From a virus (taxonomy: Duplodnaviria; Heunggongvirae; Uroviricota; Caudoviricetes), in IMG/VR virus record IMGVR_UViG_2684622582_000006, positions 1 to 23,577 of that record: DNA of 23,577 nucleotides, one strand, 5' to 3'. The notes under the pieces are model-generated. The model was not told where the DNA came from. It made no database searches and worked only from the letters and a program-made list of their open reading frames with translations. Both the position numbers and the translations under genes were made by a program. Numbering within the stretch: the first letter of the stretch is position 1; each line of letters opens with the position of its first letter. This document shows, in pieces, positions 12,338 through 15,616 of the stretch.

Positions 12338-13003
12338 TCAGACAAAACCGGCCGCTTTCCGGCGCTCATATTCCTGTTTCAGCAACTCCGCTGGCGTTGG
12401 TCCCGACGAGCGTTCTGGTGCCGCCAGTTGCCGCCGGACTGGCGGAACACTGAGACCCATACCAACATGCTTTGCCCATTTCGTCAGTTGCCGTTCTGCA
12501 AGTCGTTTTAACTCCCCTTCCGTCATCTGGCGCTCAACCCCCTTTGTCCGCATCTCAAGGCAAATGTGATACAGCACAGGCTGGGACCACGGATATTTAT
12601 CACTTCCGTCGTATCGCCAGGACTCATTGCGCCAGCAGCGGTATTCTTCCATCACGGCATCCACAGTCAGACCAAACGGGTTGGCCCCGCTTTCCGAAAT
12701 CAGCGCCACAAACTCAGCCAGGTCCGGAGGCCAGGTTTCACCCGCCCGGCAGCGGTCCATGCACTGGCGGCAGACCTGCCGGATTTGCTGCTCAGTCATC
12801 GCGCCAATCTGTGCAATCCAGAGCTTCGAAGGTGCGGCCCCGTTCTTCTGAGTCCAGCGGTTCGAATAAACCTCCCCCATGAGTTCCCACAGCTTCCACG
12901 CCGTTTCCGTCGCTGATAAATCTGTTTTCACGTTCCCACTGCTCACGTGCTGCCCGAATTTCCTGAACTGCCCGTGATGCGGTGCCACCTGGTGCTGCTG
13001 CAT
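12338..13003 (-). CDS. lambda-P-like replication protein (helicase loader)
   Basis: Aligns by eye with recalled lambda P: ...YPWSQPVLYHICLEMR... vs YPWKSNAHYWLVTNLYQNMR, ...TEGELKRLAERQLTKW... vs TDAELRRKAADELVHM. The 13003 start has SD AAGGGGGG but overlaps the initiator gene by ~210 nt; start may instead be an internal Met. Confidence 0.6.
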   Translation of the reverse strand: MQQHQVAPHHGQFRKFGQHVSSGNVKTDLSATETAWKLWELMGEVYSNRWTQKNGAAPSKLWIAQIGAMTEQQIRQVCRQCMDRCRAGETWPPDLAEFVALISESGANPFGLTVDAVMEEYRCWRNESWRYDGSDKYPWSQPVLYHICLEMRTKGVERQMTEGELKRLAERQLTKWAKHVGMGLSVPPVRRQLAAPERSSGPTPAELLKQEYERRKAAGFV

Positions 13004-13832
13004 GGCTGCCCCCCTTGCTTACTGGTCTGACCTGTGCCCTGACGTGATTTACATGACGGGCGAATTTCTGCTCCCACTGAACCTGCGTGAACACTTTGCC
13101 CTCCGACATCCAGTAATCCCGGAATGCGGCAAGTTCAGCAGGTGTAAATTCCGGTTCCGGCAGGACCGTTCCCCACAGCGCAGCACGCCGTCGAAAATCC
13201 GGCGACGGATGCCAGCCACCGGTCATCGGAAATTTCCCGATGGGTTCACTCAGGCCATCCGGAAATTCAGTTTCCGCCACCTGCAACGGCGTACCGTTCG
13301 GTTCACTGGTCGGAGCACTCTCGCGCACGCGCGCGTTATGTGTGGGGTTTAATTCTTTATCTGTATCTTTATCTGTCGTGACTCGTCGTGACATGTCGTG
13401 ACATATGCGTGACTCATCGTGACATCCCTCATTCTGTTTTCGTAATTTTTCCCTCTCACGCTGCGCTCTCTTCCGCTCTGACGGGGATTTCGCGGTATGT
13501 GAAACATTACCGTTATCCTCTTTCAGTACCTGGCGTTTTTCCCATCCGGTGATTAAATCTCCATCAAGTACCCGCCCCTGCATTGCCTGCAAAATTGAAT
13601 CAATTGACTCTTCTGTCACGTCGAGCGCACTTGCCAAATCTTCCGTCGTGACATCAATGTGACCACGTAGTGACACGCCGTGACATGTCGTGACATTTCG
13701 TGACGCACTCACCAGAAGGTGGACATAAACCGCCATCACCGTTGCGATTGGCTGTCCTGACACCCTGGAAATTGTTCGCCACTTGGGATCATTTGGCATG
13801 TCATGCCATAATCTGAGCCAGGCATTAGCCAT
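12792..13832 (-). CDS. replication initiator (YdaU/DUF1376-like, lambda-O functional analog) containing the origin iterons
   Basis: N-terminus MANAWLRLWHDMPNDPKWRTI... as recalled for Rac YdaU-type replication proteins; two iteron arrays lie inside the coding sequence; SD GAGGTGA before ATG at ~13832 (track starts at GTG 13838). Confidence 0.65.
   Translation of the reverse strand: MANAWLRLWHDMPNDPKWRTISRVSGQPIATVMAVYVHLLVSASRNVTTCHGVSLRGHIDVTTEDLASALDVTEESIDSILQAMQGRVLDGDLITGWEKRQVLKEDNGNVSHTAKSPSERKRAQREREKLRKQNEGCHDESRICHDMSRRVTTDKDTDKELNPTHNARVRESAPTSEPNGTPLQVAETEFPDGLSEPIGKFPMTGGWHPSPDFRRRAALWGTVLPEPEFTPAELAAFRDYWMSEGKVFTQVQWEQKFARHVNHVRAQVRPVSKGGSHAAAPGGTASRAVQEIRAAREQWERENRFISDGNGVEAVGTHGGGLFEPLDSEERGRTFEALDCTDWRDD
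13370..13425. repeat. iteron array 1 (5 copies of CGTGAC core at 10-11 bp spacing) plus adjacent AT-rich direct repeat
   Basis: CGTGAC at ~13377, 13387, 13397, 13408, 13418, preceded by tctttatctgt x2. Confidence 0.55.
13645..13705. repeat. iteron array 2 (6 copies of (C)GTGAC core at 10-11 bp spacing)
   Basis: Cores at ~13647, 13658, 13669, 13679, 13689, 13699. Confidence 0.55.
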
Positions 13833-13903
13833 ACTCACCTCTTCTGATACCGAATCTTTTTACTCACGAGTTGCCGGAGGCGATCCGGTATAACTATTGC
13901 CAG

Positions 13904-14329
13904 TCAGTGCATCACCACGGCATTACCCGCCGGGCCACCACGGTTCATCTGATTGAAACCGGCGATTGCGACTGCAATAAAATCATCAGCGTCTCTCACC
14001 AGTCGTTCTCGTGTCTCCAGCAACTCCCGAAAATAAGCTGAACTGTGACTACGCATTCTGGCCACCAGCAAAGGCGGCATTGCCTTTTCGATCGCTGGCA
14101 GTAACGCCTGAATTTTTTCAACCGCATCAGGGGTGTCTTTCTCCACCCAGCGGAAAATTTTCTGGGTATTACGGGCCAGGGCTTCCGGATGGCCGTCGTC
14201 ATACAGCTCAGGAAACGTCATGCCCAGCTCAAAATAAACCCTGGTTATCTCGGCTGCCGGAACTTTTTCACCGTCCGGACGCGCCCAGGCATTCATCGCC
14301 ATGCGGATGTGCTCATGCTTGATTTTCAT
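13904..14329 (-). CDS. YdaT-like protein (cII-position gene of Rac-type prophages)
   Basis: 141 aa starting MKIKHEHI..., matching the N-terminus I recall for Rac YdaT; start overlaps the YdaS-like stop. Confidence 0.65.
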   Translation of the reverse strand: MKIKHEHIRMAMNAWARPDGEKVPAAEITRVYFELGMTFPELYDDGHPEALARNTQKIFRWVEKDTPDAVEKIQALLPAIEKAMPPLLVARMRSHSSAYFRELLETRERLVRDADDFIAVAIAGFNQMNRGGPAGNAVVMH

Positions 14330-14592
14330 GAATCACCCTCCCGAGCATATGCAGTGTTAGCCTTATATCCAGCAGGCAAGCCATCGGTGGGATTAGGGTA
14401 AATATCTGGTCGGAGTTCATGGGGAGTAACCTCCCACCCCATAATCTCACACAATTGCAAAACCCTTGAGGCTGGCACCTGGTGGCCATTAGCCCATCGA
14501 GATACAACCTGTTGCGGTAACCCAATCAAGCGAGCAATACCTGCTTGGGATAGTCCTCTTTGGTGAATTTTATTTTTTAAACATTCATGCAT
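14326..14592 (-). CDS. YdaS-like Cro-type HTH protein
   Basis: From internal ATG: MHECLKNKIHQRGLSQAGIARLIGLPQQVVSRWANGHQVPASRVLQLCEIMGWEVTPHELRPDIYPNP...; HTH plus the ELRPDI motif recalled for YdaS-family proteins; first gene of the operon divergent from the repressor. Confidence 0.6.
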   Translation of the reverse strand: MHECLKNKIHQRGLSQAGIARLIGLPQQVVSRWANGHQVPASRVLQLCEIMGWEVTPHELRPDIYPNPTDGLPAGYKANTAYAREGDS

Positions 14593-14632
14593 ATCGTTAA
14601 CTCCAGTGAATTGCCATTGCCATAATTTATAC

Positions 14633-14690
14633 ACTTTTAAAGTTACTCAATCAACACTTATAAGTTAACTGTGCTAGTTACACTTTTTTT
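14633..14690. promoter_or_regulatory. OR-like operator/divergent promoter region between Cro-like and repressor genes
   Basis: 11-bp palindrome ACTTTTAAAGT at ~14633-14643, related palindrome ACTTATAAGT at ~14656-14665 and a third partial copy; the identical 11-mer recurs at the PL-like promoter (~15702-15712). Confidence 0.5.
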
Positions 14691-14705
14691 ATGTAAAATG
14701 AATGC

Positions 14706-15113
14706 ATGAAGCGAATGACTACTCTTGAAATAACCACGTACCGGATAAAACTGGTGCTGGAAAAAACGGGACTGAAGCAGGCGGAACTAGCCCGCAGGAT
14801 TGGTGTTGCCCAACAATCGGTCCAAAAGTGGGTTCACGGCATCACAAGTCCATCAACAGCTAATCTTGATAAACTTTCAGAAGTAACAGGCTTTCCCCCA
14901 TATTGGTTTATGTTACCGCCAAACGATGAAGAGCAGGTTGTGGTGCCTGATACGATGAAAATAGGTCCCAGGCAACGGGAACTACTTCAAACATTCGGAG
15001 CATTTCCAGAGGAAGATCAAGAACAAATGCTTAAAGATATGAAAGACAAAAAAGAGTCGATGGATCGCACAGTCGCAAGGTGGCTTGCAGCCCAAAAAGG
15101 GAATTTAGCGTAA
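14706..15113 (+). CDS. HTH (XRE-type) repressor without peptidase domain; immunity repressor and/or PaaR2-type regulator
   Basis: 135 aa; N-terminal HTH (LKQAELARRIGVAQQSVQKWVHG); no S24 autoprotease motif seen; divergent from the Cro-like gene; directly upstream of the toxin-antitoxin pair. Confidence 0.65.
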   Translation: MKRMTTLEITTYRIKLVLEKTGLKQAELARRIGVAQQSVQKWVHGITSPSTANLDKLSEVTGFPPYWFMLPPNDEEQVVVPDTMKIGPRQRELLQTFGAFPEEDQEQMLKDMKDKKESMDRTVARWLAAQKGNLA

Positions 15114-15142
15114 TCTCTATCGCCTGTAAGAGGAGGTGTGTA

Positions 15143-15334
15143 ATGAATACAGCCCTTTCACCAATGGTTTCTGAGTTTGAAACTATTGAACAAGAAAACA
15201 GTTACAACGAATGGCTGCGAGCCAAAGTAGCTGCAAGCCTTGCAGATCCGCGCCCAGCAATTCCCCATGATGAAGTCGAACGCAGAATGGCAGAACGCTT
15301 TGCTAAAATGCGCAAGGAACGGAGCAAGCAGTAA
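15143..15334 (+). CDS. PaaA2-like antitoxin
   Basis: 63 aa from ATG with strong SD (AAGAGGAGGTGTGTA-ATG): MNTALSPMVSEFETIEQENSYNEWLRAKVAASLADPRPAIPHDEVERRMAERFAKMRKERSKQ; stop overlaps toxin start (TAAATG). Matches my recollection of the PaaA2 antitoxin of E. coli O157 prophages. Confidence 0.7.
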   Translation: MNTALSPMVSEFETIEQENSYNEWLRAKVAASLADPRPAIPHDEVERRMAERFAKMRKERSKQ

Positions 15335-15616
15335 ATGTTACCCGTATTATGGCTTGAAAGCGCAGATAGTGACTTGGATGATATAACTAGCTATATTGCA
15401 CGTTTCGACATAAATGCGGCAGAACGCTTGTGGAAACGCTTAAGAACTTGCGTCCTGCCGTTATCCGAACATCCGTATTTATACCCACCAAGTGACAGAG
15501 TTCCGGGTTTGCGTGAGATTGTAGCCCATCCTAATTATATAATTCTTTACCGTGTAGCCACTTCAAGTATTGAAATTGTGAGTATCGTACACGCCAGACG
15601 CCAGTTCCCCAGATAA
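15335..15616 (+). CDS. ParE/RelE-superfamily toxin (ParE2-like)
   Basis: 93 aa; ...GLREIVAHPNYIILYRVATSSIEIVSIVHARRQFP fits the RelE/ParE fold signature; translationally coupled to the antitoxin. Confidence 0.75.
   Translation: MLPVLWLESADSDLDDITSYIARFDINAAERLWKRLRTCVLPLSEHPYLYPPSDRVPGLREIVAHPNYIILYRVATSSIEIVSIVHARRQFPR

What the first reader, a model, noticed from the sequence alone, without database searches (positions are those of the whole stretch)
14706..15616. ParE-type toxin and disordered-type antitoxin co-transcribed with the HTH repressor at the lambda cI-rexAB position
The repressor-like gene is followed on the same strand, with tight spacing and stop-start overlap, by a 63-aa antitoxin-like gene and a 93-aa RelE/ParE-fold toxin, then a strong terminator and the PL-like promoter. 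This is the architecture of the three-component paaR2-paaA2-parE2 module described for E. coli O157 prophages, and it is topologically equivalent to lambda cI-rexA-rexB. It raises the question whether the HTH protein is the prophage immunity repressor, a dedicated toxin-antitoxin regulator, or both, and whether the toxin contributes to phage exclusion or to prophage maintenance. The operator 11-mer ACTTTTAAAGT is shared between the Cro-side and PL-side promoters, which favours a genuine immunity role.
Basis: partly seen in the sequence, partly recalled or inferred. Interest (0 to 1): 0.55.

Follow-up and report, generated by a model that had tools for sequence, protein, structure and literature searches.

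The report
Prophage repressor operon carrying PaaA2-ParE2 toxin-antitoxin
This is a copy of the already described three-gene paaR-paaA-parE module of E. coli prophages, in which the prophage's own CI-like repressor is co-transcribed with a ParE-type toxin and its antitoxin; here the same toxin-antitoxin cassette sits behind a repressor with a different operator specificity.

Summary
Three + strand genes lie at 14706-15616: an HTH repressor (135 aa), PaaA2 (63 aa, 61/63 identical to E. coli O157 PaaA2) and ParE2 (93 aa, 82/92 identical to the O157 ParE2 whose structure is solved). A hairpin terminator and a PL-like promoter follow.

There PaaR2 acts as CI, YdaS as Cro and YdaT as CII, and paaA2-parE2 takes the place of rexAB.

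This locus is a mosaic. The repressor shares only its C-terminal ~55 residues with PaaR2 (49%). It is 64% identical over its full length to the repressor of the second EDL933 locus, presumably PaaR1. The operators (CACTT-N3-AAGTT, in PR and PL) are unrelated to those of CP-933P.

The parts occur independently. Homologous repressors in Salmonella and Raoultella hold the same immunity position without the toxin-antitoxin (TA) pair. PaaA2-ParE pairs in 80 non-enteric loci have no PaaR-like gene.

So the HTH protein is first of all the immunity repressor, and the TA pair is swappable cargo, most likely an addiction module. This is a new member of a known kind, of low to moderate interest.

The parts
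13904..14329 (-). ydaT-like gene (CII analogue), 141 aa
   Evidence: Pfam YdaT_toxin. 83% aa identity to CP-933P YdaT. DNA 81.5% identical to O157.
14319..14336 (.). YdaT operator OM-like inverted repeat TTGATTTTCATGAATCAC at the ydaS/ydaT junction (PRE region)
   Evidence: One mismatch to the published TTGATT-N6-AATCAA site. It lies in the same position as reported in PMC9986795.
14326..14592 (-). ydaS-like gene (Cro analogue), 88 aa from ATG 14592. The mechanical ORF runs up to GTG 14634, which lies inside the PR -10.
   Evidence: Pfam YdaS_toxin/HTH_3. GGAG lies 9 nt before ATG 14592. Gene callers give 88 aa in identical loci. 26% identity to CP-933P YdaS and 53% to EDL933 locus 2.
14626..14654 (-). 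PR-like promoter: -35 TTGATT (14654-14649), 17-nt spacer, -10 TATAAA (14631-14626)
   Evidence: Read from the sequence. Same layout as PL. Not flagged by the consensus scan. Assigned by analogy with the mapped PR933P.
14632..14644 (.). Operator OR1, CACTTTTAAAGTT, in the PR spacer
   Evidence: 13/13 conserved in L002 and L084.
14655..14666 (.). Operator OR2, CACTTATAAGTT (one base shorter spacing), abutting the PR -35 and centred about -45 from the PRM start
   Evidence: Variable in L002 and L084, so probably a weaker site. Its role is inferred.
14694..14706 (+). PRM-like -10 TAAAAT (14694-14699) followed 6 nt later by ATG 14706: predicted leaderless start
   Evidence: TGTAAAAT-N6-ATG is conserved in the window, L002, L084, L088, L091 and L094. 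CP-933P has GATAAT-N6-ATG, where leaderless translation was shown by 5' RACE and N-terminal sequencing.
14706..15113 (+). CI-like immunity repressor, 135 aa: N-terminal XRE-type HTH plus a PaaR-type C-terminal domain, with no peptidase domain
15143..15334 (+). paaA2 antitoxin, 63 aa
   Evidence: Pfam PaaA2. 61/63 identical to O157 PaaA2. dN/dS 0.04.
15335..15616 (+). parE2 toxin, 93 aa
   Evidence: Pfam ParE_toxin. 82/92 identical to O157 ParE2, PDB 5cw7_B. dN/dS 0.07.
15635..15665 (+). Intrinsic terminator of the repressor-TA operon
   Evidence: dG -11.3 kcal/mol, z -4.3, U-run follows.
15678..15719 (+). OL/PL: OL2 AACTTTATAGGTG (15678-15690), -35 TTGACA (15691-15696), OL1 AACTTTTAAAGTG (15701-15713), -10 CATTCT (15714-15719)
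   Evidence: This patch does not align with CP-933P, while the flanks do.
15729..16057 (+). Conserved PL leader and the first PL gene (DUF1391/ydfA-like, ATG 15905)

Best explanation
The three genes are the lysogenic (PRM-type) operon of a Rac/Qin-like lambdoid prophage of E. coli.

The first gene encodes the prophage's CI-like immunity repressor. It is a PaaR/DicA-like protein with an N-terminal HTH and a short C-terminal oligomerisation domain, and it has no RecA-cleavable peptidase domain. It is probably translated from a leaderless mRNA that starts at ATG 14706.

The repressor binds CACTT-N3-AAGTT operators. One lies in the spacer of PR and one in the spacer of PL, each with a second site abutting the -35. 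Binding shuts off the divergent ydaS(cro)-ydaT(cII) operon and the leftward early operon (ydfA, kil, recE, recT, int), and it autoregulates the repressor's own promoter.

paaA2 and parE2 ride on this transcript, in the slot that rexAB occupies in lambda. ParE2 is a DNA-damage and SOS-inducing toxin. The labile, intrinsically disordered PaaA2 neutralises it. Because the pair is made whenever the prophage is repressed, loss of this DNA segment frees ParE2. The pair therefore acts as an addiction module for the immunity region and the prophage.

Shown here: gene identities, mosaic structure, operator sharing, and the independence of repressor and TA cassette across genomes. Shown in the literature for the O157 orthologues: DNA binding, repression of PR, PL and PRM, leaderless translation, bistability, toxicity and plasmid stabilisation. 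Inferred for this locus: all biochemical activities, which sites are bound and in what order, and OL-OR looping.
For: Identity of the TA pair:
- PaaA2 is 61/63 and ParE2 82/92 identical to the solved and characterised O157 proteins.
- All three genes are under strong purifying selection, dN/dS 0.03-0.07.

Context:
- YdaS and YdaT are divergently encoded. O and P replication genes, Q, holin and endolysin lie on one side. DUF1391, Kil, RecE, RecT, Lar and integrase lie on the other.

Operators:
- The same 13-mer core sits in the spacers of PR and PL. Second sites abut both -35 hexamers. The O1 sites are 13/13 conserved in two diverged E. coli relatives.

Modularity:
- The same TA cassette (88% nt identity) lies behind two repressors with unrelated DNA-binding domains. 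In complete E. coli genomes 593 carry the CP-933P-type immunity DNA, 36 carry the window type, and 624 carry the cassette.
- Repressor homologues of 64-71% identity in Salmonella and Raoultella hold the same ydaT-ydaS/repressor position with other cargo and no PaaA2 or ParE.
- Of 80 ParE2-relative loci in other Proteobacteria, nearly all have a PaaA2-like antitoxin directly upstream and none has a PaaR-like gene.

Leaderless start:
- TGTAAAAT-N6-ATG is conserved in six loci from three genera.

Literature:
- PMC8630535, PMC9986795 and PMC4803016.
Against: - No experiment exists for this particular repressor or these operators.
- The simple sigma-70 scan did not flag PR, PL or PRM. The PL -10 (CATTCT) matches only 3 of 6 consensus positions.
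- OR2 has a different half-site spacing (N2) and is poorly conserved. A third OR site is only a half-site.
- Published work found no ParE2 activation in either transcriptional state, so the benefit of the TA is known only from plasmid-stabilisation assays.
- The published partial autorepression by the PaaA-ParE complex at the paaR promoter has no conserved DNA target here.
- PADLOC has no model for the pair, so a role in defence is neither supported nor excluded.
Confidence: 0.85

Rival explanations
1. The HTH protein is a dedicated third component of the toxin-antitoxin system, a 'split antitoxin' DNA-binding module as in omega-epsilon-zeta. On this view its main job is to regulate paaA2-parE2, not prophage immunity.
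For: The module was first described as a three-component TA (Hallez 2010, as cited). PaaA2 has no DNA-binding domain. In complete E. coli genomes the window-type repressor DNA and the full repressor-TA stretch were each found in 36 genomes, which suggests the two always travel together there.
Against: - Homologous repressors (64-71% identity) sit in the same prophage position without any PaaA2 or ParE.
- The PaaA2-ParE pair exists without any PaaR-like gene in 80 non-enteric loci.
- The operator is present in PR and PL, promoters of prophage early operons, and not only upstream of the TA.
- Experiments on PaaR2 show that it represses PR933P and PL933P.
Confidence: 0.05
2. The main function of paaA2-parE2 at this position is superinfection exclusion or abortive infection, like lambda RexAB, rather than addiction.
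For: The cassette occupies the rexAB slot and is expressed from the lysogenic promoter. That slot carries different cargo in related prophages, as expected for a defence or moron hotspot.
Against: I found no published phage-exclusion phenotype. There is no PADLOC model. The only demonstrated phenotype of the orthologue is post-segregational killing and plasmid stabilisation. The two roles are not mutually exclusive.
Confidence: 0.15
3. The module is a decaying remnant of a cryptic prophage with no current function.
For: CP-933P, the reference element, is cryptic. In the orthologous system no ParE2 activation was detected in steady state.
Against: All three ORFs are intact. dN/dS is 0.03-0.07 against relatives with dS of 0.2-0.8. 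The operators and the -10/ATG geometry are conserved. The window shows an apparently complete early region from int to lysis genes.
Confidence: 0.03

Closest known systems
paaR2-paaA2-parE2 of cryptic prophage CP-933P / Sp12, E. coli O157:H7 (Hallez 2010; Jurenas 2021, PMC8630535)
   Same: - Same gene order and the same position between ydaS-ydaT and PL.
- PaaA2 61/63 and ParE2 82/92 identical. YdaT 83% identical, with an OM-like site.
- The repressor C-terminal domain is conserved at 49%.
- The geometry of -10, 6 nt, then ATG points to the same leaderless start.
- The terminator and then PL are followed by the same conserved leader.
   Different: - The repressor N-terminal DNA-binding domain does not align.
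- YdaS is only 26% identical.
- OR and OL/PL DNA does not align, and the operator motif is CACTT-N3-AAGTT rather than GTTTAGTAA repeats.
- This is therefore a heteroimmune relative.
Second three-gene locus of E. coli O157:H7 EDL933 (presumably paaR1-paaA1-parE1; the naming is inferred from PMC8630535 and PMC4803016)
   Same: The repressor is 64% identical over its full length and YdaS 53%. The architecture is the same, as is TGTAAAAT-N6-ATG.
   Different: - PaaA is only 71% and ParE only 72% identical. Published work reports that PaaA1 and PaaA2 do not cross-neutralise.
- The operators differ (ACAGT...ATTGT type).
Lambda cI-rexA-rexB immunity operon
   Same: - A repressor is co-transcribed with host-affecting cargo, followed by a terminator and then PL.
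- The same operators occur at PR and PL.
- A cro/cII-type operon is divergently transcribed.
- The repressor mRNA is leaderless.
   Different: - There is no sequence similarity.
- The repressor lacks the S24 peptidase domain, so RecA-mediated autocleavage is not expected.
- The cargo is a type II TA rather than RexAB.
- OL1 and OR1 are about 1.07 kb apart, compared with about 2.4 kb for OL-OR in lambda (the lambda figure is from my own knowledge).
DicA repressor of the Qin prophage (E. coli K-12)
   Same: Same length class. The match to NCBIfam NF007257 covers the whole protein (residues 12-131). It holds the same position opposite a Cro-like gene.
   Different: The score of 59.7 bits is below the family cut-off of 101, so this is not a DicA orthologue. 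I did not examine the Qin locus itself.
Stand-alone PaaA2-like/ParE pairs of alpha-, beta- and gamma-proteobacteria, including Pseudomonas syringae-group plasmids
   Same: A 62-66 aa antitoxin with the conserved SPxVSEFET..EQE..Y..W motif lies directly upstream of a ParE that is 45-75% identical.
   Different: There is no PaaR-like gene and no prophage immunity context.

Membership tests
ParE toxin family (RelE/ParE superfamily), ParE2 subtype | Sequence membership: Pfam PF05016 above the gathering score, and close similarity to the solved ParE2 | tested here: met
   62.3 bits against a cut-off of 23. E=5e-55 to 5cw7_B, with 82/92 residues identical.
ParE toxin family (RelE/ParE superfamily), ParE2 subtype | Toxicity (SOS induction, nucleoid association) that the cognate antitoxin neutralises | not testable with these tools
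   Shown for the O157 orthologue only.
PaaA2 antitoxin family (PF21217, 'stability determinant') | Sequence membership, a short protein without a DNA-binding domain, and a gene directly upstream of parE | tested here: met
   73.7 bits against a cut-off of 27. NCBIfam NF050103 85.6 bits against 50. 61/63 identical to O157 PaaA2. Its stop codon abuts the parE2 ATG.
PaaA2 antitoxin family (PF21217, 'stability determinant') | Intrinsic disorder and degradation by ClpAP/ClpXP | not testable with these tools
   Reported for O157 PaaA2. At 97% identity the same is likely here.
PaaR-type repressor of three-component paaR-paaA-parE modules | HTH regulator encoded immediately upstream of paaA-parE on the same strand, with no intervening terminator | tested here: met
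   A 29-nt gap with no promoter or terminator hit in it.
PaaR-type repressor of three-component paaR-paaA-parE modules | Homology to PaaR2 | tested here: inconclusive
   Only the C-terminal 55 residues align (49%, E=3e-16). The N-terminal domain does not. A full-length match of 64% exists to the repressor of the second EDL933 locus.
PaaR-type repressor of three-component paaR-paaA-parE modules | Octamer formation, and binding to OR and OL operators | not testable with these tools
   Reported for PaaR2.
Lambdoid CI-type immunity repressor (functional class) | Divergent from a cro-like gene, with shared operators in PR and PL | tested here: met
   YdaS and YdaT are divergently encoded. The 13-mer core lies in both promoter spacers.
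Lambdoid CI-type immunity repressor (functional class) | C-terminal S24 peptidase domain for RecA-stimulated autocleavage | tested here: not met
   Pfam finds only HTH domains in the 135-aa protein. The same was reported for PaaR2. It therefore works like CI but is not a member of the CI/LexA family.
DicA subfamily (NCBIfam NF007257) | Score above the curated cut-off | tested here: not met
   59.7 bits against a cut-off of 101.

The most novel reading that the evidence does not exclude
The two DNA patches that set immunity specificity are ydaS-OR-repressor N-terminus (14336-15142) and the terminator-OL/PL patch (15617-15728). Both have been replaced relative to CP-933P. The paaA2-parE2 cassette lying exactly between them is kept at 88% nt identity.

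This is the pattern expected if the cassette polices immunity-region recombination, so that only exchanges retaining it survive. That is the hypothesis put forward in PMC8630535. The locus would then be natural evidence for a TA acting as a guard of a prophage immunity module.

Alternatively, the cassette may be a precisely bounded mobile moron that hops between heteroimmune repressor operons.
Probability: 0.25. Interest if true: 0.5.

Novelty: new member of a known kind. Interest (0 to 1): 0.25.

Why it matters
The finding adds little new biology. The module, its CI-like repressor and the rexAB analogy are all published.

Its value is comparative. It shows that the PaaA2-ParE2 cassette is coupled to at least two unrelated operator and repressor specificities. 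It also shows that the repressor family exists without the cassette. Together these settle, for this locus, that the HTH protein is an immunity repressor with TA cargo and not a TA-specific regulator.

The locus also offers a natural heteroimmune partner to CP-933P. With it one can test whether the reported feedback by the PaaA-ParE complex on the paaR promoter depends on DNA sequence, and whether the cassette constrains immunity-region recombination.

Tried and rejected
- The sigma-70 and terminator consensus scan reported none of PR, PL, PRM or the operon terminator. The terminator was confirmed by folding. The promoters were assigned by layout and homology only.
- I looked for a conserved third (HTH) gene upstream of PaaA2-ParE pairs in 80 non-enteric loci. 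Raw ORF lists were too noisy in these GC-rich genomes. tblastn with the window repressor, PaaR2, YdaS and YdaT found nothing adjacent.
- PADLOC gave no hit for PaaA2, ParE2 or the alternative slot ORFs. The HTH hits there are generic.
- The phage collection holds the cassette in only one record, phage Evi, which is the CP-933P type. No isolated phage with the window-type immunity region was found.
- The plasmid collection matches were Pseudomonas plasmids with stand-alone pairs, plus two E. coli 'plasmid' records that look like chromosomal prophage DNA.
- The species-representative genome scan did not contain the source. The source was found by exact protein look-up: E. coli assembly GCA_001268365.1, contig CXYT01000003.1.
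- I considered whether the repressor is DicA. It is not, as the score is below the cut-off.
- The GTG at 14634 was rejected as the ydaS start, because it lies within the PR -10.
- One script printed nothing and was redone.
- I did not run a structure prediction. It would not address oligomerisation or DNA binding.
Full report
OBSERVATION

- 14706-15113: 135 aa, Pfam HTH_3.
- 15143-15334: 63 aa from an ATG preceded by AGGAGG.
- 15335-15616: 93 aa.

Spacing is tight but differs slightly from the description. 29 nt separate the first two genes. The second and third abut (TAA|ATG) without overlap.

Downstream, a 10-bp hairpin at 15635-15661 followed by a U-run folds at -11.3 kcal/mol, z = -4.3. 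After it come TTGACA (15691-15696), 17 nt, and CATTCT (15714-15719).

The 11-mer ACTTTTAAAGT occurs exactly twice in 23.6 kb, at 14633 and 15702. With up to one mismatch on both strands there are 6 matches against 0.45 expected, and 0 of 100 shuffles reach 6.

The consensus promoter and terminator scan flagged none of these elements. The promoter assignments below therefore rest on layout and comparison.

WHAT THE GENES ARE

- The 63-aa product hits Pfam PaaA2 (73.7 bits, cut-off 27). It is 61/63 identical to O157 PaaA2, PDB 3zbe/5cw7.
- The 93-aa product hits ParE_toxin (62.3 bits). It is 82/92 identical to O157 ParE2, 5cw7_B, E=5e-55.
- The HTH protein has only HTH domains. It gives a full-length but sub-threshold match to the DicA subfamily, 59.7 bits against a cut-off of 101. 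In the PDB it finds only weak matches to the 434 and P22 repressor N-terminal domains.

Divergently encoded are a YdaS-like gene (88 aa from ATG 14592) and a YdaT-like gene.

The wider window is a Rac/Qin-like lambdoid prophage:
- On the minus-strand side: O and P replication genes, the nin region, Q, holin and endolysin.
- On the plus-strand side, downstream of PL: DUF1391, Kil, RecE, RecT, Lar and integrase.

The window is 100% identical over 8.4 kb to E. coli assembly GCA_001268365.1, contig CXYT01000003.1.

WHAT IS ALREADY KNOWN

Jurenas et al. 2021 (PMC8630535) studied paaR2-paaA2-parE2 of the O157 prophage CP-933P. They showed the following:
- PaaR2 is a functional analogue of CI, YdaS of Cro and YdaT of CII.
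- paaR2 mRNA is leaderless.
- PaaR2 and YdaS footprint the 97-bp intergenic region.
- Both repress PRM933P, PR933P and a PL933P promoter downstream of parE2 that has matching operators.
- The locus is bistable.
- The region stabilises an unstable plasmid.

PaaR2 lacks the peptidase domain and is reported to octamerise.

Prolic-Kalinsek et al. 2023 (PMC9986795) defined the YdaT site TTGATT-N6-AATCAA at the ydaS/ydaT junction. They state that parE2 and paaA2 replace rexB and rexA.

HOW THIS LOCUS DIFFERS

Against the O157 locus (L001), DNA homology covers ydaT (13906-14335, 81.5%) and paaA2-parE2 plus the PL leader (15143-15899, 80.8%). It does not cover 14336-15142.

A closer alignment shows that the terminator-OL/PL patch (15617 to about 15728) also does not align. 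Homology resumes at ACCACCCCACCCCGCCCC. The 5' edge of the conserved cassette is the paaA2 ATG itself.

At protein level:
- The repressor matches PaaR2 only in its last 55 residues, at 49%.
- YdaS is 26% identical.
- YdaT is 83% identical, and an OM-like site (TTGATTTTCATGAATCAC, 14319-14336) is retained.

The repressor is instead 64% identical over its full length to the repressor of a second EDL933 three-gene locus, L094. That locus is presumably paaR1-paaA1-parE1; the naming is inferred. Its PaaA and ParE are only 71% and 72% identical to the window's.

The window is thus a mosaic:
- ydaT is CP-933P-like.
- The ydaS-operator-repressor module belongs to the PaaR1-like family but has its own operator sequence.
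- The TA cassette is CP-933P-like.

OPERATORS AND PROMOTERS

Read on the minus strand, PR is AACTTATAAGTG-TTGATT-GAGT-AACTTTAAAAGTG-TATAAA. PL is AACTTTATAGGTG-TTGACA-TTGT-AACTTTTAAAGTG-CATTCT.

Each promoter has one 13-bp site (CACTT-N3-AAGTT) in its spacer and a second site abutting its -35.

The spacer sites are 13/13 conserved in two E. coli relatives whose surrounding DNA is about 88-97% identical. The second sites vary.

Homologous immunity regions in Salmonella, Raoultella and EDL933 locus 2 have different palindromes at the same places. That is expected for heteroimmune repressors.

All of them keep TGTAAAAT-N6-ATG in front of the repressor gene. CP-933P has GATAAT-N6-ATG, with a mapped leaderless start. 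I therefore predict a leaderless mRNA beginning at A14706 and a 135-aa product. PGAP annotates the 132-aa form.

IS THE HTH PROTEIN A PROPHAGE REPRESSOR OR A TA REGULATOR?

Three dissociations argue for prophage repressor with TA cargo.

(i) The same cassette lies behind different repressors. In 5,426 complete E. coli genomes the cassette occurs in 624. The CP-933P-type ydaS-paaR2 DNA occurs in 593 and the window type in 36.

(ii) The same repressor family occurs without the cassette. Homologues of 64-71% identity in Salmonella and Raoultella lie in the same ydaT-ydaS/repressor/PL architecture. An unrelated 112-133 aa ORF fills the slot.

(iii) The cassette occurs without any repressor. ParE2 relatives (45-75% identical) in 80 alpha-, beta- and gamma-proteobacterial loci nearly all have a 62-66 aa PaaA2-like gene directly upstream. 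None has a PaaR-like gene. Pseudomonas plasmids carry such stand-alone pairs.

All three window genes are under strong purifying selection, dN/dS 0.03-0.07.

MECHANISM (BEST EXPLANATION, CONFIDENCE 0.85)

In the lysogen, the repressor binds OR and OL. It probably does so as an oligomer through the conserved C-terminal domain, and OL1 and OR1 are about 1.07 kb apart.

Binding silences PR (ydaS-ydaT, replication and late genes) and PL (ydfA, kil, recE, recT, int), and it autoregulates PRM.

paaA2-parE2 are co-transcribed with the repressor and terminate at 15635-15665.

ParE2 is held inactive by PaaA2. Loss of the segment leads to PaaA2 decay and ParE2-mediated killing, which is addiction.

YdaT bound at 14319-14336 would drive a PRE-like transcript through the repressor operon during establishment.

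Only gene identity, architecture and comparative patterns are shown here. The activities are taken from the O157 orthologues or inferred.

RIVALS

- A dedicated TA regulator (confidence 0.05) is contradicted by dissociations (ii) and (iii) and by the operator in PL.
- A RexAB-like exclusion role (0.15, not exclusive of addiction) has no support in PADLOC or in the literature I could search. It is not excluded.
- A decaying remnant (0.03) is contradicted by the purifying selection and the intact regulatory geometry.

OPEN POINT

Hallez 2010, as summarised in PMC4803016, reported partial repression of the paaR promoter by the PaaA-ParE complex. Here an almost identical TA pair faces unrelated promoter DNA. 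That feedback is therefore either not sequence-specific or absent in this locus.

NOVELTY AND VERDICT

This is a new member of a known kind. It is a heteroimmune, mosaic paaR-paaA2-parE2 immunity operon.

The most novel reading not excluded concerns the retention of the cassette between two independently replaced specificity patches. This may reflect selection by addiction against immunity-region exchange, as proposed in PMC8630535. I give that reading a probability of about 0.25.

Interest: 0.25.

Noticed in passing
window 21843-22021 (-), with ORFs 21635-21844 and 21765-22025 (+): Rfam RalA sRNA (216.7 bits, gathering score 170) lies antisense to Lar/RalR-like ORFs. This is the type I ralR/ralA toxin-antitoxin of Rac-type prophages, and a second TA system in the same prophage.
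   Followed up: no
window 6969-7150 (-), with ORF 7044-7256 (+): Rfam sok antitoxin RNA (65.7 bits, gathering score 59) overlaps a 70-aa + strand ORF. This is probably a hok/sok-type type I TA, and a third TA system in the window.
   Followed up: no
window 1984-2295 (-): Three tRNA genes lie between the Q-like antiterminator (3384-4046) and the holin and endolysin genes (1502-1747, 964-1497). I recall this arrangement from Stx-type lambdoid phages.
   Followed up: no
window 5022-6035 (-) and 5914-7038 (-): A 337-aa ORF with no PHROG hit lies next to, and overlaps, a DNA methyltransferase gene in the nin region. It could be a restriction or defence partner, or an ORF-extension artefact.
   Followed up: no
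window 15729-15865; also L001, L002, L088 and L094: The untranslated leader after PL (ACCACCCCACCCCGCCCCACAGAACGCAGGGCAATACTTCGAGTTACC...) is conserved across heteroimmune E. coli prophages and a Salmonella prophage. The OL/PL DNA just upstream is not conserved. This may be a regulatory RNA or an antitermination site. There is no Rfam hit at gathering score.
   Followed up: partly
L088:3577-3915, L089:3553-3915, L091:3530-3931: In Salmonella and Raoultella prophages with a homologous repressor, the slot that holds paaA2-parE2 here carries unknown 112-133 aa ORFs. The Salmonella ORF has a sub-threshold EACC1 (PF19953) match of 22.7 bits against a cut-off of 23.6. There are no PADLOC hits.
   Followed up: partly
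window 14706-14717: RefSeq/PGAP annotates the identical E. coli repressor from the second ATG (132 aa). The conserved TGTAAAAT-N6-ATG geometry argues for the first ATG (135 aa, leaderless).
   Followed up: yes
window 6931-6941: ACTTTCAAAGT, an operator-like palindrome one mismatch from the OR1/OL1 core, lies inside the methyltransferase gene. It is probably a chance match.
   Followed up: no
PLSDB records NZ_CP124741.1 (287 kb) and CP061244.1 (1.4 Mb): Two E. coli 'plasmid' records contain lambdoid prophage immunity regions with paaR-paaA-parE. They look like chromosomal fragments or misassemblies rather than plasmids.
   Followed up: no
window 12338-13838 (-): The mechanical ORFs for the O-like (348 aa) and P-like (221 aa) replication genes overlap by about 210 nt, and both hit phrog_15931. 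Gene callers on the identical contig give 346 and 153 aa with a small overlap, so this is an ORF-extension effect and not a fusion or frameshift.
   Followed up: partly
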